NCBI GenBank assembly: GCA_016214605.1
Contig: JACROD010000012.1
Span: 57 to 64,056, forward strand
Direction of reading: 5' to 3'
Length of the DNA stretch: 64,000 nt
Origin: Candidatus Kaiserbacteria bacterium
GTDB lineage: Bacteria; Patescibacteriota; Minisyncoccia; Phycocordibacterales; UBA2100
Made by a program: the position numbers and the translations under genes
Shown here: one piece after another, positions 3,005 through 53,854 of the stretch
Numbering within the stretch: the stretch's first letter is position 1
Layout: every line of letters begins with the position of its first letter
The notes under the pieces: generated by a model
Database searches by the model: none
What the model was told of the DNA's origin: nothing
Seen by the model: only the letters and a program-made list of their open reading frames with translations

Positions 3005-5935
3005 ATGATAAAGAAACTCCTCCCCGCCCTCCTTTCCGTCCTGTTCATCTTCCCGTTCTCCGCATCCGCTCTCACACAGCAAGAACGCACCACCCTCATC
3101 TTCCAGCTCGTCGCCAAAGTCCTCGAGCTCCAAAAGCAGATCGTCGCCCTCGGCGGCACGCCGATCGCAATCCCGCCAGGTCTTGCGGCACTGGCACAGC
3201 AGGGACAAAATCCCACAACACCATCGACGACTCCCAACCCTCTTGCTATTTCGTTTACCGCACCAGCCACGAGCACGGTGAGTGGTACGGTCACACTTAC
3301 GGCGGTAGCTTCAAGCACGAACGCTATCCTCGGCGTCCAATTCAAACTTGACGGTGCAAATCTCAACGCCGAAGACACAACATCACCATATTCAATATCA
3401 TGGAACACCGCATCAACGACCAATGGCGCGCACACGCTTGCCGCTGTAGCACGCGATGCGGCGGGGAACAGAGCGACGAGTACGCGCGCCGTGACGATCT
3501 CAAACGCTGCCGTCGACATGATCCCGCCAGCCGTCCCCTCGTCTCTCTCGGCGACCGTCATCTCGCAAACCCAAATCAATCTCTCATGGTCTTCTTCCGC
3601 CGATACTGGCGGTTCGGGGCTTGCAGGGTACAAGGTGTATCGCAATACTGTTCAGATCGGCACCACGACCAACACATCGTTCCAAAACACCGACCTTACG
3701 GCTTCCACTACCTATACGTATGCCGTCGCCGCATACGACAATGCAGGCAATATATCAGCCAAGTCGGCCGGCGTCTCAAAAACGACACTGTCGGTCGCTA
3801 CTTCGTTGACATCCGCTCAACAGCTTGCCGCCAAGCTACACCAGGATACGCTACCGGTATTCAAAGCGGATCACACTCTGCCGCCTCTCACACGATGGGG
3901 GTGGCAGCTCAATTACGACCTTCAAAAAGAACTCGCCGAGGAGTGGGGGTATGCACTTGACTTCGGCATGGCGACAACCTCGAGCATAAACGCGCTCCAA
4001 TCCCCGGCGAGTCTGCAATCGAGGCTGGTCGCTCTCACAAAATCCGATCCGAAACGGTATCCGATGTCGGCGCTTGTGTGGCGTGGCTATCCGGCATTGG
4101 ACCCTGCAATAGGCTATATTCACGATAGTGCAGGAAATCTCATCAAGGAGCCAATCAAAGGTGCGAATATTTTTAGTCCGCTCGCTCCCGATTCGTACTT
4201 CAAACAGGCAGGACAGATGCGGGCCAATTCGCTCAAGGGATTGGTGGCAAAAGTGCCCGTCTCCATCGTCCTCAACGGGGGTGAGGACAGCCCAAGCTTG
4301 GCGAATCCGGGTCTTTATAATGCTCAATATGAGCAGGATCCGGCCGTCGTGGCGGCTCGTGCTATCGCACCGTGGACATACCGCGATTACGGTCCTGTGC
4401 CGTGGGCCTACTACATCTCCGAACGGAAAGCCCATCAAGAGAACATTATTTCCGATTCCATCCGCGCGGCCGTGCCCAACAGAATACTCTATGTCTACTA
4501 TCCGACAGGCGGACCGTTGTACTCGCTTTGGAATGCCGATCGCGCATCACAAGAGCTTGTCGATTCTTACTGGGGATATCCATGGATGCGTGCCGTGTCC
4601 GATATGCCGTCAAATCAATATTACACAGCTATATTCAATAAAGGGTACACTGTGGATCCGAACGACCTGCTCTCGCAGATGCTTAAGTCCAAGGGATTGG
4701 AATTCGCGTACGGCGATTATCTGTCGTACAATTGGGTTGCTAACTACGGTTTTGACTCGGCGGTTCTACCCAACGATCGTTACATCGGTTTCCTCAAGAT
4801 GGCTTATGGTGCCGGCATGATGGGCGGCATCGCGGGCTACTTCTCGTATCCCGCGGATGCCTTCGGTACGAAGTGGCAGGGGGGCGCATATCCGGATTGG
4901 CTCGTGCAAATGATGGCACTCTCCCAAGTGCATGCGGCATTCAGCTGGCTAGAGCCATTGGTGCACGTCAGTGATCTTCTGCCCGGCCCCGCCATACAAC
5001 CGACGACGTTCGCGTTTCCGGCGTACGAATTCCCGACGGGTGATGCCGGTGCGCGAGTCGTCGCGCGCAGGCACCGCGGCGCGAACATCTGGCTCGTCGT
5101 CGCGTGGGCGCAGAGCGGCGATGCGCGCACGGTGAGTATCGCGATACCCGATCTTGGTACGGTATCTGTCGTGGCGCGGCCGGCTGGCAGCATCTATCTT
5201 GCGAAGCCGGGAAGCGGTTCTACGGCGATTACATTGCTTGACTCCGATGCGATGCACCCATCCATCGGAATGCAAACGGCCATCACAAACGCGGGGGGAC
5301 TTGGGAGTTCGATATCGAATAGTCCTATCGGATCAGACACTAAACCGCCGTCGGTGCGCATCACGTCGCCCAAACCGGCATCATGGCCGTGTTGGAGGGG
5401 ATCCGAAAATGCTATCGTCGCGGCGGCGGACGACAACGTCGGCGTGACGAGCGTGCAGTTCCAGCTTGACGGGGCTAATTATGGATCGCCGATCGCCAAA
5501 GCACCGTATCTTATGAGTTTGAACACGACTCTGCTACAAGATGCGCCGGGACCGGACGGGAAAGGTGTGAAGTATGCCATCACGGCAATTGCGCGGGATG
5601 CCGCCGGTAATACAAGCACGTCGGCGCCAATCACTCATTGTGTCTATAATTATCCGATCATGTCTATATTGACGCCTGCCGCGAGCTCCACTGTTTCAGG
5701 GATAGTCACACTAACTGCATCTTCAACCGGGATTACTCCGCCGGCGGTCAGAGCACAATACTACATCGATGGCAGTACGTCGCTTGGGACGGCAACGTCT
5801 TCTGCTCTATCCTATAAACTAAAATGGGACACAACCACCACTACCAATGGTCTGCATGTGGTCAAGGTTGTCGGTTCTGATTGGAGAGGGTATATAGGCA
5901 CCTCGCCCACTATCACTGTTATGGTCAAAAATTAA
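3005..5935 (+). CDS. Secreted multidomain protein: signal peptide, coiled coil, Ig-like domains, a fibronectin type III domain and a large uncharacterised domain
   Basis: The N-terminus MIKKLLPALLSVLFIFPFSASA is a signal peptide. The FN3 signature is 'PPAVPSSLSATVISQTQINLSWSSS...GYKVYRN...TSFQNTDLTASTTYTYAVAAYDNAGN'. It shares the VQF(K/Q)LDGAN...ARDAAGN Ig-like module with its neighbours. The ATG at 3005 is preferred over 2990. Confidence 0.65.
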   Translation: MIKKLLPALLSVLFIFPFSASALTQQERTTLIFQLVAKVLELQKQIVALGGTPIAIPPGLAALAQQGQNPTTPSTTPNPLAISFTAPATSTVSGTVTLTAVASSTNAILGVQFKLDGANLNAEDTTSPYSISWNTASTTNGAHTLAAVARDAAGNRATSTRAVTISNAAVDMIPPAVPSSLSATVISQTQINLSWSSSADTGGSGLAGYKVYRNTVQIGTTTNTSFQNTDLTASTTYTYAVAAYDNAGNISAKSAGVSKTTLSVATSLTSAQQLAAKLHQDTLPVFKADHTLPPLTRWGWQLNYDLQKELAEEWGYALDFGMATTSSINALQSPASLQSRLVALTKSDPKRYPMSALVWRGYPALDPAIGYIHDSAGNLIKEPIKGANIFSPLAPDSYFKQAGQMRANSLKGLVAKVPVSIVLNGGEDSPSLANPGLYNAQYEQDPAVVAARAIAPWTYRDYGPVPWAYYISERKAHQENIISDSIRAAVPNRILYVYYPTGGPLYSLWNADRASQELVDSYWGYPWMRAVSDMPSNQYYTAIFNKGYTVDPNDLLSQMLKSKGLEFAYGDYLSYNWVANYGFDSAVLPNDRYIGFLKMAYGAGMMGGIAGYFSYPADAFGTKWQGGAYPDWLVQMMALSQVHAAFSWLEPLVHVSDLLPGPAIQPTTFAFPAYEFPTGDAGARVVARRHRGANIWLVVAWAQSGDARTVSIAIPDLGTVSVVARPAGSIYLAKPGSGSTAITLLDSDAMHPSIGMQTAITNAGGLGSSISNSPIGSDTKPPSVRITSPKPASWPCWRGSENAIVAAADDNVGVTSVQFQLDGANYGSPIAKAPYLMSLNTTLLQDAPGPDGKGVKYAITAIARDAAGNTSTSAPITHCVYNYPIMSILTPAASSTVSGIVTLTASSTGITPPAVRAQYYIDGSTSLGTATSSALSYKLKWDTTTTTNGLHVVKVVGSDWRGYIGTSPTITVMVKN

Positions 5936-6220
5936 TCGGATCATCGCTGTTCACGGAGGTAGAATCTGAGCTGGTCTCATTGAGACGGTTGACTTTGAAT
6001 TAACGTGACGATGTCCCCAAGCGCCACAAAGTCGTGTTGCATATGGCAAGCGCTATCTGGACCTGCTGGTCCAGCGCTCGGTCTTGCCGCCGTCGCACCA
6101 CAAGGGCATTTCCATTTTCCTAAGAGGATTACCTCTAAGGAAAATTGGTCCAGCTGCGAAGACGGCAAAAAAGACGACAAAAAACATTCCCCCGCGTTTT
6201 GTCCGTGCTATACTTTTCTC

Positions 6221-7081
6221 ATGCAAACTCTCAAAGAAGCCATAGAAGCCGCGCATGATAGTCGGATCGCGATCGGCCACTTTAATGTATCGGATTCCAA
6301 CCAATTCAACGCCGTGGTCGCGGCGGCGGGAAGCCTCAATCTCCCCGTCATCATCGGCGTCTCCGAAGGAGAGCGTACATTCTTTGGTGTGCACAATATC
6401 GCGGTTTTGGTCGCCGCGGCTCGCGCCGATGGCAAACAGGTATACCTCAATGCCGACCACACCTATTCTATAGATGGTATCAAGGAAGCCGTCGACGCCG
6501 GATTCGACGCGGTCATTTTCGACGGCAGCCATCTCTCATTTGAAGACAATATCAAACAGACCCGCGAGGTCGTCGAGTATGCGCGCACAAAAGGCAAGGG
6601 CACTTTGGTGGAAGCCGAGGTCGGCCGCATTGGCACCTCGAGCAAGCTTCTCGATGTCCCGCCCGAAGACATGGACAAAGACCTGACGACCGCCGAAGAG
6701 GCTTCACAATTTGTCCGCGAGACTTCGGTAGATATGCTCGCTCCGGCGGTCGGCACCATGCATGGCAGGCTCAAAGGCGGTGGCGAGCCCAAGATCGACA
6801 TCGCCCGCATCGAGGTATTGCGCGAGGCCGCCGGCGTCCCGCTCGTGCTCCATGGGGGATCGGGGTCGTCAGATGCCGACATTATAGCAGCGGCCAAGGC
6901 GGGTTGCTCGATCATTCATATCAATACTGATATTCGTGTCGCATACCGCAAGGGGATAGAGGCAGCTCTGGCGGCAAATGCCGATGAAATAGCCCCCTAC
7001 AAATTCCTCGCAGAGGGGACAAAGGCTGTCCAAGACATGACTACCAAATACCTCCGTCTTTTTGCGGGAATACAAGAATAG
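6221..7081 (+). CDS. fba: Fructose/tagatose-bisphosphate aldolase, class II
   Basis: MQTLKEAIEAAHDSRIAIGHFNVSD...VIIGVSEGE...LHGGSG are class II aldolase motifs. The ORF-track start at 6005 is a spurious 5' extension. The ATG at 6221 gives about 287 aa. Confidence 0.85.
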   Translation: MQTLKEAIEAAHDSRIAIGHFNVSDSNQFNAVVAAAGSLNLPVIIGVSEGERTFFGVHNIAVLVAAARADGKQVYLNADHTYSIDGIKEAVDAGFDAVIFDGSHLSFEDNIKQTREVVEYARTKGKGTLVEAEVGRIGTSSKLLDVPPEDMDKDLTTAEEASQFVRETSVDMLAPAVGTMHGRLKGGGEPKIDIARIEVLREAAGVPLVLHGGSGSSDADIIAAAKAGCSIIHINTDIRVAYRKGIEAALAANADEIAPYKFLAEGTKAVQDMTTKYLRLFAGIQE

Positions 7082-25310: not shown

Positions 25311-25349
25311 TAATATGCTATAATCACACGGCCGTGTATAAATAGCATA
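25311..25349 (+). promoter_or_regulatory. Promoter/operator block upstream of the PaaX-like regulator gene (copy 1 of a duplicated motif)
   Basis: The block is aatatgcTATAATcaCACGGCCGTGtataaatagcata. It holds a perfect -10 hexamer abutting a 12 bp palindrome ACACGGCCGTGT. It is about 85% identical over 39 nt to the block at 26022-26059. Confidence 0.55.
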
Positions 25350-26021: not shown

Positions 26022-26059
26022 TATGCTATTTTCATACGGCCGTGTAAAGATAGTATAAG
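26022..26059 (+). promoter_or_regulatory. Promoter/operator block (copy 2) upstream of the hypothetical gene at 26158
   Basis: The block is aatatgctattttCATACGGCCGTGtaaagatagtata, with an ACGGCCGT palindrome core. It is near-identical to the block at 25311-25349. Confidence 0.55.
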
Positions 26060-37709: not shown

Positions 37710-38295
37710 ATAAAAAAAGAGGGGAGAGGTGAGGGGAGTTTTTACCCCTTTTCCCTGCTTCCTAAAATAGGACCCCTACCCCGGTGGGGGAGCGGAAAGG
37801 GCCTCCCCGGTTTTTTAGCGCGATCCTTTTTATACCGACGTGAGCCGATAAAGATATTTCCGAAATATTTTTTGAGGAGGCCAACAAAAAAGAGGGGGTA
37901 GACAACAAATCTCGGGAAGTGTTGTAATGATCTCGGCCCTGTGGATAACTTCTATAGGTAACGTCGCACAATATATCTTTTGCGACACATCGCTAGGGCG
38001 CAATGTCGCAAAAGATACGCCACAATGTGCAACGCAGTCTTCTTCGAAGAATACATCGCACAATGTGGCGCAGTCCCGAGTGCATGCCATTACTTTGCTC
38101 ATATCGCATTTTAGGACCTCTGGCTTCCCCGGACCTCGGGTCGGCTCTTTTTGGTCCGGGGGCTCTCCGAGCCTCCCGGACCTGATACTAGGTATGGGTC
38201 CAAACGGCCAGAGGCCCGTATAGGGCCTCAAAAAATTGCCGAGATCAGGGAAGTCGGACTTCCCTCTTTTTTGATCTAACCGGGGGAGTCAAAAA
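37710..38295. other. About 590 bp non-coding, repeat-rich region with several stem-loops (possible structured RNA, regulatory array or island boundary)
   Basis: There is no convincing ORF. There is a G-rich hairpin with a T-run (GGGGGAGCGGAAAGGGCCTCCCCGGTTTTTT, about 37770-37810). A cluster of related motifs follows (tcgcacaatat, tgcgacacatcgc, gcgcaatgtcgca, gccacaatgtgcaacgc, tcgcacaatgtggcgcag, 37960-38080). Further hairpins are ccggacctcgggtcggctc...gagcctcccggacc and ggcccgtatagggcc. Confidence 0.4.
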
Positions 38296-38330
38296 TAATG
38301 ACCTCGATCGAGGTCATTATTTTTGATTAT
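38296..38330 (-). terminator. Terminator for the AT-rich minus-strand cassette
   Basis: A perfect 14 bp inverted repeat AATAATGACCTCGA/TCGAGGTCATTATT is flanked by A/T runs. Confidence 0.65.
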
Positions 38331-48143: not shown

Positions 48144-51100
48144 ATGTCTCAGTCTGATTTCGTTCATCTCCACACCCACTCCCACTATTCCCTTCTGGAA
48201 GCATTGCCCAATATCAAGGATCTGGTAAAGGCCGCAAAGGAAGATGGGCAGACCGCGCTCGCGCTTACCGACAATGGCAACATGTACGGTGCGATCGAGT
48301 TTTACAAAGAGTGCAAGAAAAAAGAGATCAAGCCGATCATTGGCGTAGATTTCTACGTGGCTCAGCGCACGCGCCACGACAAAGAGCATCGCGTCGACGA
48401 TCGTCATAGTCGCCTGATCCTGCTCGCCAAGAATGAAGCGGGGTATCGCAATCTCCTCCTCCTAGTATCCAAGGCCTACATCGAAGGCTTTTACTATCGT
48501 CCGCGCCTCGATCGCGAGCTCTTGCAGGCATACCGCGAGGGCCTGATCGCGATCCTCCCCTCCTTTTCGGGTGAGCATGCGCGCGCACTCAAGGATGATG
48601 CGGCAGACCGAGCGCGCGAATCGCTCGATTGGTACAAACACCTCTACGGCGAGGACCTCTATCTCGAGATCACCCATCACCCCGAGATCGAAGGCCACGA
48701 GGATCTGCAAAAAAAGATCATCGCTCTGGGCAAGGAAATGCATGTGCCGCTGGTCGCCGCGCATGATACGTACTATTTGAAACAAGACGACGCGATCGCG
48801 CGCGAGCTGGTCAACAAGATCCGCACCGGCGGCACCCTGAATCGCGATCTCGACGACAATGCGCCCAATTTTTCCTTCATCCCCAAAGCCGAGGCGATCA
48901 AGCTTTTCAAGAGCACTCCGGAAGCTCTCGACAACACGATCAAGATCGCGGATCAATGCAACCTCACGCTCAATCTCGGTTCGTGGCTCTTTCCCGACTT
49001 TCCTATTCCGGCGGGCACGACGCACGATGCAGAGCTGCGCGAATTCACCTATCAGGGATTTGCGCGCCGCAATATCCCCCAAAATCCTGATATCGTCGCA
49101 CGCGTCGACTACGAGCTCAAGGTCATCGCCGACAAGGGGTATTCGCCGTACTTCTTGGTGGTGTCTGATCTGCTTCGTCATGCCAAATCCGCAGGCATCT
49201 TTACCAACACCCGCGGATCGGCGGCCGGATCGCTCGTCTCGTATCTCACGGGCATCACGACGGTCGATCCGCTCGAATACCAGCTCCCCTTCGAGCGCTT
49301 CCTCAATCCGGAGCGCCCCTCGCCGCCGGACGTCGACATGGACATCGCCGACAACAGGCGCGACGACATGATCGCATATGCGCGCCACAAGTACGGCGAC
49401 GATCACGTGGCGCAGATCGGCACCTTTGGGACCATGATGGCGCGCGCCGCCGTGCGCGACGTCTCGCGTGCACTCGGACATTCGTATGCGCTCGGCGACA
49501 AGATCGCCAAGATCATTCCCTTTGGCAAGCAGGGTTTTCCCGTCACGATTGCAGGCTCGCTCGAAGAGGTCCCTGAGCTCGCCGAGGTCTACAAGACCGA
49601 TTCGGATGCCCGTGAGATCCTCGATCTCGCACAAAAGGTCGAAGGCAATGCGCGCCATGTGGGAGTGCATGCGGCCGGGGTCGTCATCGCGCCCACGCCG
49701 GTGACGGATTTTGTGCCGATACAATTCGACCCCAAGGGCGGCAAGATGATCACGCAGTACGACATGCATGCCGTCGAAGAAGCCGGCCTTCTCAAATTCG
49801 ACTTTCTGGGTCTCACCAACCTCTCGGTCCTCGCCGATGCCGTGGCGCGCGTGCGCGATCGCCTCGGTGTCGAGATCGACATGGATCGCTTGCCGCAGCG
49901 AGATGAAAAGACCTTCGAGATGCTCTCGCGCGGCGAGACACTCGGTGTATTTCAAATGGCGAGCAGTGGCATGACTAGCTACCTGATGAAGCTGAAGCCC
50001 ACGCGCATCGACGACTTAAACGTGATGGTCGCACTCTATCGTCCGGGCCCGATGAACAACATCGACGAATACATCGCCCGCAAGAACGGCACGTCGCGCA
50101 TCACCTATCTGCACCCCAAAATGGAATCCTATCTCTCCAAGACCTTCGGCGTGCTCGTGTACCAAGACGACCTCCTCATGACCGCGATCGAGCTCGCCGG
50201 ATACACCTGGGGCGAGGTCGACAAATTCCGCAAAGCGGTCGGCAAGAAGATCCCCGAAGAAATGGCCAAACAGCACGTGATCTTCGTCGAAGGATGCCAA
50301 AAGCACACCGGCATGAGCGCCGCGATGGCAGAGAAGCTGTGGGAGCTTTTCGAGCCGTTCCAGGGCTACGGCTTCAACAAGGCGCATGCCGCGAGCTACG
50401 GCAACCTCGCGTATCAGACCGGCTACATGAAAGCCAACTTCCCTGTCGACTACATGGCGGCGGTGCTCACGGCGACCGGCGGAGATGTAGACGAGATCGC
50501 ACAGATCGTCGCCGAGTGCAAGCGCATGGGGATCGCGATCTTGCCACCGTCGATCAATCAGAGCCGCGGCAATTTTACCGTAGTGGATGACTTCTCCGAA
50601 CCAAAAAATCCTGGAAGGTCAGACCTTCCAACGGAAATAAGCCATGAAATCGATGGGAAGGTCAGACCTTCCCAAAATATGGCGATTCGTTTCGGGTTGT
50701 ACTCCATCAAGAATTTTGGCACCGGCGTTGGCGATTCGATCATCGCTGCGCGCGAGGAGGGCGGAGATTTCACCGACATTGCCGATTTCCTCTCGCGTAT
50801 TCCCGACAAGAATCTCAACAAAAAATCCCTCGAAGCCTTGATCAAGTGCGGCGCGATGGATGATCTTGGAGAGCGCGGATCGCTTCTCGCGCATATCGAG
50901 ATGCTGCTCGGATTCCATCGCGAGCACATGAAGGCGCCGTCGGACCAAGGCTCGCTCTTTGGCGGACTCATGGCCACACCGACCACACTGCGCCTGCCTC
51001 CTGCTCCCGCCGCTTCAAAAGACCAGTGTCTCGAATGGGAAAAAGAACTCCTCGGTCTCTACATCTCGGGCCATCCGCTCGACAAACATGCGGCCAAGCT

Positions 51101-51392
51101 CAGCAATGCGAAGAATACGATCAAGCATGCCAAGACGAATCTGCGTGGTGTCGACACGGTGATCGGCGGCTTTATTGAAACGGTCCGCACGATCCTCACG
51201 AAGAAAGGCGAGAAGATGGCGTTTATCAAGATCGCCGATCTGTCCGACACGATCGAGGTCGTCGCGTTTCCCCGTACGTTCAAAGAGCATGAGGCGCTCC
51301 TCGTGCCAGGCCAGTGCGTCGCGCTCAAAGGTAAGGTAGAAGAGCGCAATGGCGAACAGAGCTTTTTGATCGACAAGGTGCGCGCGTTGTAG
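48144..51392 (+). CDS. dnaE: DNA polymerase III alpha subunit
   Basis: The PHP domain is FVHLHTHSHYSLLEA...ALTDNGNMYGA. The palm/fingers and HhH regions are present. There is a C-terminal OB fold. Confidence 0.95.
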   Translation: MSQSDFVHLHTHSHYSLLEALPNIKDLVKAAKEDGQTALALTDNGNMYGAIEFYKECKKKEIKPIIGVDFYVAQRTRHDKEHRVDDRHSRLILLAKNEAGYRNLLLLVSKAYIEGFYYRPRLDRELLQAYREGLIAILPSFSGEHARALKDDAADRARESLDWYKHLYGEDLYLEITHHPEIEGHEDLQKKIIALGKEMHVPLVAAHDTYYLKQDDAIARELVNKIRTGGTLNRDLDDNAPNFSFIPKAEAIKLFKSTPEALDNTIKIADQCNLTLNLGSWLFPDFPIPAGTTHDAELREFTYQGFARRNIPQNPDIVARVDYELKVIADKGYSPYFLVVSDLLRHAKSAGIFTNTRGSAAGSLVSYLTGITTVDPLEYQLPFERFLNPERPSPPDVDMDIADNRRDDMIAYARHKYGDDHVAQIGTFGTMMARAAVRDVSRALGHSYALGDKIAKIIPFGKQGFPVTIAGSLEEVPELAEVYKTDSDAREILDLAQKVEGNARHVGVHAAGVVIAPTPVTDFVPIQFDPKGGKMITQYDMHAVEEAGLLKFDFLGLTNLSVLADAVARVRDRLGVEIDMDRLPQRDEKTFEMLSRGETLGVFQMASSGMTSYLMKLKPTRIDDLNVMVALYRPGPMNNIDEYIARKNGTSRITYLHPKMESYLSKTFGVLVYQDDLLMTAIELAGYTWGEVDKFRKAVGKKIPEEMAKQHVIFVEGCQKHTGMSAAMAEKLWELFEPFQGYGFNKAHAASYGNLAYQTGYMKANFPVDYMAAVLTATGGDVDEIAQIVAECKRMGIAILPPSINQSRGNFTVVDDFSEPKNPGRSDLPTEISHEIDGKVRPSQNMAIRFGLYSIKNFGTGVGDSIIAAREEGGDFTDIADFLSRIPDKNLNKKSLEALIKCGAMDDLGERGSLLAHIEMLLGFHREHMKAPSDQGSLFGGLMATPTTLRLPPAPAASKDQCLEWEKELLGLYISGHPLDKHAAKLSNAKNTIKHAKTNLRGVDTVIGGFIETVRTILTKKGEKMAFIKIADLSDTIEVVAFPRTFKEHEALLVPGQCVALKGKVEERNGEQSFLIDKVRAL
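50598..50682 (+). repeat. In-frame insertion within dnaE containing two copies of a 17-19 bp perfect palindrome
   Basis: GGAAGGTCAGACCTTCC (50613-50629) and GGGAAGGTCAGACCTTCCC (50655-50673) encode an extra FSEPKNPGRSDLPTEISHEIDGKVRPSQ segment. This segment is absent at the corresponding position (..HVNDDGEIVYG..) of E. coli DnaE. Confidence 0.6.
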
Positions 51393-51895: not shown

Positions 51896-53635
51896 ATGTC
51901 TTCAAGTCTCGAATATAAGCGCCATACACTCGCACATCTTATGGCAGCTGCTGTCAAGGATCTCCATCCAAGCGCGCTCCCCACCATTGGTCCGGCGATC
52001 GACAATGGCTTTTACTACGACTTCGATACGCATGAGATCAAAGAAGAAGATCTCAAGAAGATCGAAAAGAAAATGCGCCAAGTTCTCCCCTCTTGGAAAG
52101 CATTTACCCACGAAGTCGTCTCTGCCGACAAGGCGCGCGAGGTATTTGCCAGCAACAAATACAAGATCGAACTCATCGACAATCTGGAGAAAGAAGGTGC
52201 GACAATCACGCTCTACACCTGCGGCGGATTCACCGATCTTTGTCGCGGCGGCCACTGTGAGCATCCTGCGGCAGAGATCGCGCCGGATTCATTCCAGCTC
52301 GACAAGGTCGCAGGCGCCTATTGGCGCGGTGACGAGAAAAATCCCATGCTCACGCGCATCTACGGTCTCGCATTTGAAGACAAAGCCGGTCTCGATGCAT
52401 ATCAGGCGATGATGATTGAAGCGGAGAAACGTGATCATCGCAAGCTCGGTGCCGAACTCGATCTTTTTCATTTTGATGAATCCATCGGCAAAGGTCTCCC
52501 AATCTGGCTCCCCAAAGGCAACATCATCAAAGAAGAACTCGAAAAATGGGCAAAGGAGACGGAAACCAAATGGGGCTATCAGCGTGTGACGACCCCGATC
52601 ATCACCAAAGAAGATTTGTTCTACACATCAGGGCATCTCCCGCTCTACAAAGACAGTATGTATGCACCGATCCAGATCGAGAATGAGAATTACTACATCA
52701 AGCCGATGAACTGCCCGTTCCACCACAAGACCTTCGCCGCTCGGCCCAAGAGTTATCGCGATCTGCCGGTCCGCTATGCAGAGTACGGCTGGTGCCATCG
52801 TTTCGAAGATTCCGGCAGTCTCTTTGGTCTCATGCGTGTGCGCGGCATGCAGATGAACGATGCTCACATCTATGTCCAAAAAGAAGATGCCGTCGAAGAA
52901 TTCGTGCGCGTCATCCAGCTCCACGAGTATTACTACAAGACCCTCGGTATTGAAAATTACGAAATGGAATTGGCTCTGCGCGATCCCAAGAAAATGGACA
53001 AATATCACGGCGACGAGGAGGATTGGAAAGATGCCGAACGCATGACCATCGAGGCAATGGAAAAGTCCGGCGTGCCCTACAAAGTCGTCCACGAAGGCGC
53101 CGCCTTCTATGGTCCCAAGATGGACTTCCAGATTTATTCTTCTATAGGGCGCGCATTCACCGCTTCGACCAATCAGCTTGACCTTTTCATGGGCAAGCGC
53201 TTCGGTCTCGAATACACCGCCAAGGATGGTACCAAACAGATCCCGGCAGTCATCCACCGCGCACCTCTCGGTACACACGAACGCTTCATCGGATTCCTCA
53301 TCGAACACTACGCCGGAGCATTCCCGACCTGGCTCTCTCCGGTCCAGGTCAAGATATTGCCGGTCTCCGAAAAGCACGCTGACTATGCGGCAGAGATATT
53401 GAAGCAATTGCAGACAGCAGACATCCGCGCCGAAGTCGACGATACTGACAGCCTCGGCAAGCGCATCCGCGCCGCAAAGATGCAAAAGGTGCCGTACGTG
53501 ATCGTCGTTGGCGACAAAGAAGTAGAGCAAAAGAATCTCACCATAGAAGGCCGTGCAGGCAAATGGGAGAAGACCCCGTCGGTAGAGGAGTTTATCACGG
53601 AGATCAGTAAAGAGATCGAGACCCGTTCCCTCTAA
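51896..53635 (+). CDS. thrS: Threonyl-tRNA synthetase (short form lacking the N-terminal TGS domain)
   Basis: The SAD/editing motifs are HTLAHLMAAAV...CGGFTDLCRGGHCEH. The class II motifs 1-3 and the anticodon-binding domain follow. Confidence 0.9.
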   Translation: MSSSLEYKRHTLAHLMAAAVKDLHPSALPTIGPAIDNGFYYDFDTHEIKEEDLKKIEKKMRQVLPSWKAFTHEVVSADKAREVFASNKYKIELIDNLEKEGATITLYTCGGFTDLCRGGHCEHPAAEIAPDSFQLDKVAGAYWRGDEKNPMLTRIYGLAFEDKAGLDAYQAMMIEAEKRDHRKLGAELDLFHFDESIGKGLPIWLPKGNIIKEELEKWAKETETKWGYQRVTTPIITKEDLFYTSGHLPLYKDSMYAPIQIENENYYIKPMNCPFHHKTFAARPKSYRDLPVRYAEYGWCHRFEDSGSLFGLMRVRGMQMNDAHIYVQKEDAVEEFVRVIQLHEYYYKTLGIENYEMELALRDPKKMDKYHGDEEDWKDAERMTIEAMEKSGVPYKVVHEGAAFYGPKMDFQIYSSIGRAFTASTNQLDLFMGKRFGLEYTAKDGTKQIPAVIHRAPLGTHERFIGFLIEHYAGAFPTWLSPVQVKILPVSEKHADYAAEILKQLQTADIRAEVDDTDSLGKRIRAAKMQKVPYVIVVGDKEVEQKNLTIEGRAGKWEKTPSVEEFITEISKEIETRSL

Positions 53636-53637
53636 AG

Positions 53638-53692
53638 AGGTTGCGAGAATGAGACCTTCGCATTTTTTGCGAAGGTCTGATTCTCGCAACCT
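53638..53692. repeat. 25 bp inverted repeat immediately after the thrS stop
   Basis: AGGTTGCGAGAATGAGACCTTCGCA ttttt TGCGAAGGTCTGATTCTCGCAACCT has one mismatch across the stem. Confidence 0.7.
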
Positions 53693-53727: not shown

Positions 53728-53736
53728 ATACAAATC

Positions 53737-53766
53737 AAAACCGCCCCTTTCGGGGCGGTTTTGATT
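53737..53766. terminator. Bidirectional rho-independent terminator between thrS and the convergent repeat-protein gene
   Basis: AAAACCGCCCC TTT CGGGGCGGTTTT is flanked by an A-run and a T-run. Confidence 0.8.
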
Positions 53767-53854
53767 TCACTTTGGAGCGCCTTTTGGGGAGCTCGTCCGC
53801 CTTCGCACTTCGTGCTTCAGCGTGACAAGGGCGGCGGCAGTCGGTTGGTTGATG

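What the first reader, a model, noticed from the sequence alone, without database searches (positions are those of the whole stretch)
50598..50682. dnaE carries an in-frame insertion made of two copies of a short perfect palindrome
Within the dnaE HhH/beta-binding region, the DNA contains GGAAGGTCAGACCTTCC and GGGAAGGTCAGACCTTCCC 43 bp apart. Each is a perfect hairpin-forming palindrome. Together they encode an extra roughly 25 aa (FSEPKNPGRSDLPTEISHEIDGKVRPSQ) not present at the equivalent position (..HVNDDGEIVYGIGAIKGVG..) of E. coli DnaE. This looks like a miniature palindromic element that inserted into an essential gene in frame and was tolerated. It could also be a regulatory RNA hairpin embedded in coding sequence.
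Basis: seen in the sequence. Interest (0 to 1): 0.6.

Follow-up and report, generated by a model that had tools for sequence, protein, structure and literature searches.

The report
REP palindrome pair inside dnaE
A pair of short mobile DNA palindromes, of a kind that flanks a dedicated transposase gene in related ultra-small (CPR) bacteria, has landed in frame in a surface loop of the essential replicative polymerase gene dnaE and appears to be tolerated as about 29 extra amino acids. It is a new example of a phenomenon already known from other bacteria.

Summary
GGAAGGTCAGACCTTCC occurs exactly twice in the 64 kb window, 43 bp apart, inside a 1082-aa dnaE of a Kaiserbacteria-like CPR bacterium. 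The two copies lie in an 87-nt (29-codon) insert. The closest relative (94% aa identity) and most orthologues lack this insert.

The insert replaces a 2-residue turn between two beta-strands, just before the HhH/beta-binding region. It is predicted to be disordered.

The palindrome is not private to this gene. In a scan of one genome per species, 36 of 120 exact matches were in CPR genomes, up to 6 per genome. In three CPR genomes the palindrome flanks a ~230-aa IS200-like Y1 (HUH) transposase gene, on both sides in two of them. The best NCBIfam match of that gene is 'REP-associated tyrosine transposase'. So the palindrome is a REP-like element with a RAYT-like partner.

Copies also sit in frame in lepA, argS, rnhB, recG, a rarA-like gene and a glycosyltransferase gene of other CPR genomes.

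The same DnaE loop carries unrelated hairpin-forming inserts in other orthologues, so it is a recurrent landing site.

Intragenic REP dimers encoding 20-30 aa, including one in Rickettsia dnaE, were described in 2013 (PMC3733652). I therefore rate this a new member of a known kind. The most likely mechanism is selfish insertion with neutral retention. I found no evidence of a regulatory role.

The parts
48144..51392 (+). dnaE (DNA polymerase III alpha subunit), 1082 aa, the host gene
   Evidence: ORF; translation; best hits are CPR DnaE with PHP, DNA_pol3_alpha, finger, HHH_6 and OB domains; aligned to solved Pol III alpha structures.
50592..50678 (+). In-frame insert of 29 codons (FSEPKNPGRSDLPTEISHEIDGKVRPSQN) relative to empty-site orthologues. 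The segment with no homology to the closest relative is 50585-50681.
   Evidence: Orthologue alignment; DNA at the site in L001-L005; blastn break points; 32 residues replace 2 in Taq Pol III alpha; pLDDT below 50 between strands FTVV and IRFG; G+C dip.
50612..50630 (+). REP-like palindrome copy 1, TGGAAGGTCAGACCTTCCA (core 17-mer 50613-50629), read as GRSDLP
   Evidence: DNA hairpin -7.0 kcal/mol, z -3.6; same 17-mer flanks Y1 transposase genes in L021, L094 and L092.
50631..50653 (+). Spacer between the two extended palindromes (26 nt between the 17-mer cores). Not repeated and not found elsewhere.
   Evidence: no tandem-duplication signal (8 of 39 flank positions match in register); six-frame peptide search found no other copy of the doublet.
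50654..50674 (+). REP-like palindrome copy 2, TGGGAAGGTCAGACCTTCCCA (core 17-mer 50656-50672), read as GKVRPS. Its flanks (TG..CAAAA) fit the family consensus TTK-core-MAA.
   Evidence: DNA hairpin -9.2 kcal/mol, z -4.8; flank consensus of 36 CPR copies.

Best explanation
The insert is a doublet of a REP-like palindrome, core GGAAGGTCWGACCTTCC with flank consensus TTK..MAA. This palindrome belongs to a repeat family widespread in CPR/Patescibacteria. In those genomes it is partnered with a ~236-aa Y1 (HUH) tyrosine transposase of the REP-associated (RAYT) type.

By analogy with characterised RAYT and IS200/IS605 enzymes, the transposase would bind the hairpin in single-stranded DNA and cut and rejoin it, spreading hairpins or hairpin doublets around the genome. 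This step is inferred, not shown.

In a genome that is about 94% coding, many landings fall inside genes. Only those that keep the frame, carry no stop codon (5 of the 6 frames of the 17-mer are open) and hit a tolerant loop can survive.

Here the doublet landed at the tip of a beta-hairpin (FTVV | IRFG), just upstream of the helix-hairpin-helix/beta-clamp-binding region of DnaE. It is most probably translated as a disordered 29-residue surface loop with no function of its own. That makes it selfish DNA retained because it is neutral or nearly so.

The same loop has taken up other, unrelated palindromic elements in other lineages, so it is a recurrent permissive (or preferred) site.
For: Shown by tool results:
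- Two exact copies lie in frame in dnaE, far beyond chance.
- The insert is absent from the 94%-identical orthologue and from most of the 60 closest orthologues. The homology break is at 50585-50681.
- In the genome-contig scan, 36 of 120 exact matches (29 of 113 loci) are in CPR genomes. Several genomes hold 3-6 copies. No non-CPR genome has more than one distinct copy.
- The 17-mer lies within 2-53 nt of both ends of a ~230-aa ORF in L021 and L094, and at the 5' side in L092. REP variants flank the orthologous gene in the Kaiserbacteria chromosome OY969413.1.
- Those ORFs match Pfam Y1_Tnp above its gathering score (43, 28 and 42 bits against 23). Their best NCBIfam match is REP_Tyr_transpos. 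The HUH motif (NHFHLL) and a conserved Tyr in Y-I/V-x-x-K/N-N/P are present.
- More distant homologues are flanked by their own hairpins of the same AAGG...CCTT design: L182, L163 and L117.
- The family has 401 homologues at E <= 1e-5, all named from CPR lineages. P0121 occurs once in a complete 993-kb chromosome and has the same downstream neighbours in four samples.
- In-frame copies are found in LepA (doublet), ArgRS, RNase HII (doublet), RecG, a RarA-like ATPase and a glycosyltransferase.
- The insertion point is a 2-residue turn in Taq Pol III alpha (884-887) and a low-confidence loop between two strands in the model.
- The same loop holds other hairpin-forming inserts in L002, L003, L005, L122, L133, L142, L176 and L181. 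The L003 insert has a relative in the 3' end of dnaB in L004.

Literature: intragenic REPs, mostly dimers encoding 20-30 aa, are known, including in dnaE of Rickettsia conorii (PMC3733652).
Against: - No transposase of this family and no further REP copy is present in the 64 kb window. The rest of this genome could not be reached. So the link between this particular doublet and a RAYT rests on other CPR genomes.
- Copy numbers are low (a few per genome), unlike classical REP families.
- No GTAG or CGTC tag is conserved next to the hairpin.
- The transposases score far below the NCBIfam RAYT cutoff (27-32 bits against 80). They gave no significant match to solved TnpA/RAYT structures by sequence or by Foldseek.
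- By their central base, the two copies here are in direct rather than inverted orientation, unlike typical REPINs and unlike the doublets in L013, L024, L036 and L073.
- Transposition, translation of the insert and its neutrality are all inferred.
- Some CPR matches (DUF192 genes in L019 and L070) look like native coding sequence rather than element copies.
Confidence: 0.8

Rival explanations
1. The hairpins are a selected cis-acting structure in the dnaE mRNA or DNA. They could act as a translation pause, an RNase site that tunes DnaE level, or a protein-binding site. The coding insert would then be the price of carrying it.
For: The structure is stable: RNA -35.9 kcal/mol, z -3.9; DNA z -5.4. 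The 17-mer is perfectly conserved at the same position of a glycosyltransferase gene in two species whose flanks have diverged (L040 and L096). It also sits at the same loop of ArgRS in two phyla (L031 and L104). Many host genes act in replication or repair, as the literature also noted for REPs.
Against: It is absent from the closest relative, whose DnaE is 94% identical. Other orthologues have unrelated sequences or nothing at this site. There is no Rfam family match. The same 17-mer occurs in unrelated genes, in different frames and orientations, and in intergenic DNA. That pattern fits a mobile repeat better than a gene-specific regulator.
Confidence: 0.08
2. The insert is an ordinary lineage-specific loop expansion made locally, for example by template switching or hairpin-primed repair at a fragile site. 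No mobile element is involved, and the resemblance to palindromes elsewhere is coincidental.
For: This loop varies greatly in length across Parcubacteria, and many long versions are not palindromic (K/E-rich loops). No other copy and no transposase is seen in the window.
Against: The identical 17-mer recurs up to 6 times per genome in other CPR bacteria and flanks Y1 transposase genes. Chance expectation for one 17-mer in 64 kb is about 0.15 even with 3 mismatches allowed. The flanks show no sign of local duplication.
Confidence: 0.05
3. The insert has been co-opted. The 29 residues would give DnaE a new interaction surface next to the clamp-binding and DNA-binding region.
For: The position is close to the HhH/beta-binding region. 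The reading frame is kept. The literature raises the possibility for REP-decorated replication and repair proteins.
Against: The segment is predicted disordered with pLDDT 30-46. It is unique to this lineage among thousands of DnaE sequences. The two REP copies are read in different frames, so no peptide motif is repeated. Nucleotide palindromy, not peptide sequence, is what is conserved across genes.
Confidence: 0.05

Closest known systems
REP / RAYT systems (repetitive extragenic palindromes and REP-associated tyrosine transposases; doublets are called REPINs)
   Same: A short palindromic unit is dispersed in the genome and is often paired. Copies flank a Y1/HUH transposase gene. That gene is single-copy at a fixed locus in the one complete genome seen. 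Intragenic dimers encoding 20-30 aa are described for REPs, including in dnaE, dnaE2 and tRNA synthetase genes (PMC3733652).
   Different: Copy number is very low (2-6 exact copies per genome). No GTAG or CGTC tag is present. About 40% of CPR copies lie inside long ORFs. The same 17-nt core is shared across CPR phyla, although the transposases are only about 47-50% identical between Saccharibacteria and Parcubacteria. The transposase is longer (about 236 aa) and scores below the NCBIfam RAYT cutoff. The doublet in the window is head-to-tail by its centre base.
Rickettsia palindromic elements (RPE) and related in-frame palindromic inserts
   Same: Palindromic selfish DNA is inserted in frame into genes for functional, often essential proteins in a small genome, and is tolerated as extra surface peptide (background in PMC3733652).
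   Different: RPE-1 elements are longer (about 100-150 bp; from my own knowledge). They occur in a different phylum and have no sequence relation. Here a candidate transposase partner is identifiable.
IS200/IS605 insertion sequences and their hairpin-only derivatives (MITE/PATE-like)
   Same: They have a Y1 HUH transposase (Pfam PF01797) and subterminal hairpins, and leave no target-site duplication. Two similar hairpins in direct orientation resemble a left end plus a right end without the gene.
   Different: The transposase gene is single-copy with conserved neighbours across samples, not multi-copy. The NCBIfam IS200 model scores worse than the RAYT model. Solitary hairpins far outnumber gene-containing units.

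Membership tests
REP / RAYT system | Short (about 20-40 nt) palindromic unit able to form a stem-loop | tested here: met
   19- and 21-nt palindromes with 8-9 bp stems; DNA fold z -3.6 and -4.8. This is at the short end of the range.
REP / RAYT system | Many dispersed copies within one genome | tested here: inconclusive
   Other CPR genomes hold 3-6 exact copies plus variants. In the window there are only the two copies in dnaE. The rest of this genome is not available.
REP / RAYT system | Copies of the repeat flank a Y1 (HUH) tyrosine transposase gene | tested here: met
   Met in related genomes, not in the window. Both sides in L021 (276-995) and L094 (4259-4951), one side in L092 (6209-6904), variants on both sides in L054 (5086-5802). 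Pfam Y1_Tnp is above the gathering score. There is no homologue in the window.
REP / RAYT system | Transposase recognised as RAYT rather than IS200 TnpA (curated model); HUH and Tyr motifs present | tested here: inconclusive
   The best NCBIfam hit is REP_Tyr_transpos, but at 27-32 bits against a cutoff of 80; IS200 scores weaker. HUH (NHFHLL) and the Tyr motif are conserved. There is no significant PDB match by sequence or Foldseek.
REP / RAYT system | Transposase gene single-copy at a fixed chromosomal site | tested here: met
   P0121 is found at one place in the complete 993,452-bp chromosome and has the same downstream neighbours (TPR and Wzy_C genes) in four samples. This covers one lineage only.
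REP / RAYT system | Conserved GTAG (or CGTC) tetranucleotide at one end of the unit | tested here: not met
   The flank profile of 36 oriented copies gives TTK..MAA, a symmetric extension of the palindrome, with no GTAG or CGTC.
REP / RAYT system | Extragenic location | tested here: not met
   Both window copies are inside dnaE. About 14 of 36 CPR copies lie in ORFs of more than 200 aa. Intragenic REPs are, however, documented exceptions.
REPIN (REP doublet forming a hairpin) | Two REPs in inverted orientation separated by a short spacer, able to fold into one long hairpin | tested here: inconclusive
   The two copies have the same centre base (A), so they are head-to-tail. Because the unit is otherwise a perfect palindrome, the arms are still 16/17 complementary with a 26-nt loop. 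Doublets in L013, L024, L036 and L073 have opposite centre bases, i.e. they are inverted.
Classical MITE (TIRs plus target-site duplication) | Direct duplication of the target site at both ends | tested here: not met
   No direct repeat brackets the insert when compared with the empty site of L004 or with L001.
Mini-intein or homing-element remnant in dnaE | Intein splicing blocks; size above 130 aa | tested here: not met
   The insert is 29 aa, with no Cys/Ser/Thr-His-Asn boundary pattern and low-complexity disordered sequence.
Known structured RNA (Rfam) | Match to a curated covariance model | tested here: not met
   No family reached its gathering score in the window or in L001-L005.

The most novel reading that the evidence does not exclude
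CPR/Patescibacteria carry a previously undescribed, phylum-spanning REP-RAYT system. Its 17-nt hairpin core is essentially invariant from Saccharibacteria to Kaiserbacteria. Its copies end up in coding sequence unusually often. They recur in the same protein loops (DnaE, ArgRS, a glycosyltransferase) and in replication or repair genes (DnaE, RNase HII, RecG, RarA-like). That pattern would mean insertion is targeted, for example to hairpin loops exposed in single-stranded DNA at replication forks. Alternatively the hairpins have been recruited for a function in these minimal genomes rather than being neutral passengers.
Probability: 0.2. Interest if true: 0.7.

Novelty: new member of a known kind. 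Interest (0 to 1): 0.5.

Why it matters
The finding shows that an essential replication enzyme of a minimal-genome bacterium tolerates an insertion of selfish DNA. It also identifies the likely element family and its transposase partner in CPR bacteria. I found no description of REP/RAYT systems for CPR in the searchable literature.

Practical consequences:
- It explains one class of odd inserts in CPR proteins.
- It gives a marker (GGAAGGTCWGACCTTCC plus a 236-aa Y1 transposase) for tracking such elements.
- It flags a permissive loop in DnaE that could be used for tagging.
- Such repeats can break assemblies around the transposase gene.

If the recurrence at the same loops and in replication/repair genes reflects targeting, it would bear on how RAYT-type enzymes choose their sites, which I believe is still unresolved.

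Tried and rejected
- **Rfam:** a gathering-threshold scan of the window and L001-L005 gave no hit.
- **Source genome:** exact look-up of window proteins found neither DnaE nor the downstream tRNA synthetase on record. Other copies in the same genome could therefore not be counted.
- **Other copies of the whole doublet:** a six-frame peptide query against 5.8 billion proteins scored nothing at E <= 10. The peptides are too short, and no near-identical doublet exists in called proteins.
- **Tandem duplication as the origin of the doublet:** rejected. Only 8 of 39 flank positions match in register.
- **Solved structures for the transposase:** phmmer and profile searches of the PDB gave nothing significant. 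ISDra2 TnpA aligned only at E 0.6 over the HUH region.
- **Viral contigs:** a scan for the 21-mer gave no match.
- **More in-frame hairpins in the window:** a scan found nothing comparable in coding sequence.
- **Intein, group I/II intron and CRISPR-repeat readings:** rejected on size and architecture.
- **DNA-uptake sequence:** rejected, because the motif occurs only a few times per Mb.
Full report
**1. The observation**

The window carries GGAAGGTCAGACCTTCC at 50613-50629 and again at 50656-50672 on the + strand. No further copy exists even with three mismatches, and none of 100 dinucleotide-preserving shuffles reached this count.

With their flanks the units are TGGAAGGTCAGACCTTCCA (50612-50630) and TGGGAAGGTCAGACCTTCCCA (50654-50674). 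Each is a palindrome of odd length. As a hairpin it forms an 8- or 9-bp stem with a 3-nt loop. DNA folds give -7.0 and -9.2 kcal/mol, z -3.6 and -4.8. The RNA fold of 50590-50695 gives -35.9 kcal/mol, z -3.9.

Both units lie in ORF 48144-51392 (+). This ORF encodes a 1082-aa DNA polymerase III alpha subunit whose nearest relatives are from Candidatus Kaiserbacteria/Paceibacterota, i.e. CPR/Patescibacteria. The two copies are 43 nt apart, so they are read in different frames (GRSDLP and GKVRPS). Local G+C falls to 0.46 from about 0.58.

**2. It is an insertion**

Most of the 60 closest orthologues read FTVVDD-xT-IRFGL at this point. The window has 29 additional residues there.

The closest relative (P0001/L001) has 94% aa identity, conserved gene order, and 91% and 86% nt identity on the two sides. 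Its homology to the window stops at 50584 and resumes at 50682. Its own 28 nt at the site (PSTASGQAD) are unrelated and not palindromic. The orthologue L004 has an empty site.

Against Thermus aquaticus Pol III alpha (2HPI), 32 window residues replace two residues between positions 884 and 887. This is directly upstream of the segment that aligns to the HhH/beta-binding part.

An AlphaFold model of residues 745-935 places the insert between two short strands (FTVV and IRFG) with pLDDT 30-46. That is a disordered excursion at a beta-hairpin tip.

**3. The site is a recurrent landing place for palindromic DNA**

Seventeen of the 60 closest orthologues have 8 to about 45 extra residues at exactly this point, and the sequences differ. 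Where I could fetch DNA, the long inserts are hairpins:

| Locus | Arms of the inverted repeat |
|---|---|
| L002 | 28 bp, perfect, around a 53-nt centre |
| L003 | 23 bp |
| L005 | 36 bp, 81% complementary |

L002 and L005 are homologous to each other. The L003 insert is homologous to an element in the 3' end of dnaB in L004.

In 80 more distant Parcubacteria dnaE loci from metagenomes the loop is highly variable. Several long versions are significantly hairpin-forming (L122, L133, L142, L176, L181). Many others are ordinary K/E-rich loops.

**4. What the palindrome is**

Of these, 36 matches in 29 loci are in CPR genomes: Kaiserbacteria, Saccharibacteria, Woesebacteria, Nomurabacteria, WWE3, Doudnabacteria, Minisyncoccia and others.

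Individual CPR genomes hold up to 6 copies. All other taxa have single, scattered matches that look like chance hits or terminators. From my own knowledge CPR make up only a few per cent of species and about one per cent of bases in such collections, so this is a strong enrichment.

In CPR the core is usually extended symmetrically. The consensus is TTK-GGAAGGTCWGACCTTCC-MAA, with no GTAG or CGTC tag. It often occurs in pairs (L013, L024, L036, L073).

The decisive finding is the gene next to the palindrome. In three genomes the palindrome brackets a ~230-aa ORF:

| Locus | ORF | Hairpin positions |
|---|---|---|
| L021 | 276-995 | 2 nt from one end and 53 nt from the other; another 191 nt away |
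| L094 | 4259-4951 | 3 nt and 4 nt from the two ends |
| L092 | 6209-6904 | 15 nt upstream; two more nearby |

- The ORFs match Pfam Y1_Tnp (IS200-like) above the gathering score.
- Their best NCBIfam hit is the REP-associated tyrosine transposase model, though far below its cutoff.
- The HUH motif NHFHLL and the Tyr motif are conserved.
- The orthologue in the complete Kaiserbacteria chromosome OY969413.1 is flanked on both sides by degenerate variants, TGTGGAAGTTTAACTTTCACA and TGTGAAAGTCAGACCTTCACG.
- More distant homologues are flanked by their own hairpins of the same AAGG...CCTT design.
- The protein family has 401 members at E <= 1e-5, all about 236 aa. Where a source names them, the names are from CPR lineages.
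- One member occurs once in a complete 993-kb chromosome and has the same downstream neighbours in four samples. That is the behaviour described for RAYTs rather than for multi-copy insertion sequences (PMC5581495).

**5. Copies inside other genes**

About 14 of 36 CPR copies lie in open frames longer than 200 aa. Pfam confirms these hosts:

- LepA (a doublet in the linker after the GTPase domain)
- ArgRS
- RNase HII (a doublet)
- RecG
- a RarA-like AAA ATPase
- a GT4 glycosyltransferase

ArgRS carries the 17-mer at the same loop in a Nomurabacterium and a Woesebacterium, but in different frame and orientation. The glycosyltransferase carries it at the same place in two species whose flanks have diverged.

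Five of the six reading frames of the 17-mer are open. The whole doublet in the window is open in two of six frames.

Not every hit is an element. The copies in DUF192 genes (L019, L070) fit that family's native motif, as far as I know it.

**6. Mechanism**

What is shown:
- The insert is lineage-specific.
- It is made of a repeat that is dispersed in CPR genomes and associated with a Y1 transposase.
- It sits in a disordered loop.

What is inferred, from what is known of RAYT and IS200/IS605 enzymes:
- The transposase recognises the hairpin in single-stranded DNA and moves hairpins or doublets.
- In a genome that is about 94% coding, only in-frame, stop-free landings in tolerant loops survive.
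- The peptide is a neutral passenger.

The window itself has no transposase homologue and no other copy, and its genome is not in the look-up collection. So the link to a transposase is by family, not by direct observation in this organism.

The doublet did not arise by a recent tandem duplication. By centre base it is head-to-tail, an arrangement reported as rare for REP dimers. The unit is otherwise a perfect palindrome, so orientation is nearly undefined and the two copies can also pair with each other (16/17).

**7. Comparison with what is known**

The closest known class is the REP/RAYT (REPIN) system. Di Nocera et al. 2013 (PMC3733652) already reported several matching features:

- REPs occur inside genes.
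- More than half of such inserts are dimers or groups encoding 20-30 aa.
- Many hosts are replication and repair genes.
- Hosts include dnaE2 genes, dnaE of Rickettsia conorii and tRNA synthetase genes.

The Rickettsia palindromic elements are the classical precedent for in-frame palindromes.

What differs here:
- the host clade (CPR);
- very low copy number;
- absence of the GTAG/CGTC tag;
- a divergent, longer transposase;
- a 17-nt core shared across CPR phyla, although the transposases are only about 47-50% identical between Saccharibacteria and Parcubacteria.

I found no paper in the searchable library that links RAYT or REPIN with CPR. The single co-mention concerns an archaeal locus.

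**8. Verdict**

This is a new member of a known kind. It is of moderate interest as the first documented case, to my searches, of a REP/RAYT-type system in CPR bacteria, and as a clean example of selfish DNA tolerated inside the replicative polymerase.

The more novel reading is targeted insertion into particular loops or a recruited function. The recurrences at the same loops and in replication/repair genes hint at it, but it is not established.

Noticed in passing
L158:10972-11625(-), L163:3413-4069(-), L182:11362-11985(+), L189:1314-1937(-): In four diverse Parcubacteria metagenome loci a RAYT-like Y1 transposase gene lies immediately downstream of dnaE. At least two are bracketed by their own hairpin: ATACCAAGGTGAAACCTTGGTAT in L182 and GGACAAGGCGAGGCCTTGTCC in L163. 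This is too frequent for chance adjacency and may relate to dnaE being a frequent host of palindromic inserts.
   Followed up: partly
window 53638-53692; L002:9568-9615: A 25-nt-arm hairpin lies right after the stop of the tRNA synthetase gene (51896-53635). It contains GAAGGTCTGA, half of the REP core. At the orthologous place L002 has a perfect 48-bp palindrome made of an inverted doublet of GCGAGTCWGACTCGC, which shares the GTCWGAC centre.
   Followed up: no
window 53732-53767: The terminator-like hairpin AAATCAAAACCGCCCC/GGGGCGGTTTTGATTT is 100% conserved in L001 and L004, although the surrounding genes are only 75-86% identical.
   Followed up: no
window 38289-38326: A perfect 38-bp palindrome (TCAAAAATAATGACCTCGA / TCGAGGTCATTATTTTTGA) lies between two divergent ORFs. 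It could be an operator or a bidirectional promoter element.
   Followed up: no
window 25314-25349 and 26022-26057: Two related intergenic palindromes (TATGCTAT...ACGGCCGT...ATAGCATA) lie about 700 bp apart, each upstream of a small ORF. They look like a repeated operator or promoter motif.
   Followed up: no
DnaE orthologues P0002, P0008, P0013, P0016, P0024 (aligned to window aa about 870-905): Orthologues carry further short inserts at other DnaE loops: APKNPSTENGLGISGQ, TSSTALGASGE, APSTTLGTSRQ, SDPSIEVGAG and APLEAAPLTGRAEP. P0002 is 93 aa longer than the empty-site form (P0004). In-frame inserts therefore seem common in Kaiserbacteria DnaE. I did not check their DNA for palindromy.
   Followed up: no
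L003:2904-2993 and L004:23-122: A second palindromic element family has 23-bp arms (GCGGCGAG..ACTTT) and a conserved centre. It is found in frame in dnaE of one Kaiserbacterium and in the 3' end of dnaB of another.
   Followed up: partly
L031:4060 and L104:6992; L040:7117 and L096:3457: The exact 17-mer sits at the same loop of ArgRS in a Nomurabacterium and a Woesebacterium, in different frame and orientation. It also sits at the same position and frame of a GT4 glycosyltransferase in two species whose flanking codons have diverged. Site preference or long persistence remains unexplained.
   Followed up: partly
L001:13176-13319: In the closest relative, a 32-nt-arm inverted repeat (84% complementary, 80 nt between arms) starts at the dnaE stop codon. 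I did not look for a counterpart in the window.
   Followed up: no
L122:10202 region; P0020, P0044, and short forms in P0001, P0007, P0035, P0037, P0040: A recurrent peptide at the same DnaE loop, (Y/H)PEGTRGV-DPS(T/N)xSGQ, is encoded by an imperfect 14-bp-arm hairpin (GGAACTCGAGGGGT..ACCCTTCGAATTCC; z -5.4). The short DPSxxSGQ forms, including PSTASGQAD in the closest relative, may be decayed halves of that element.
   Followed up: partly
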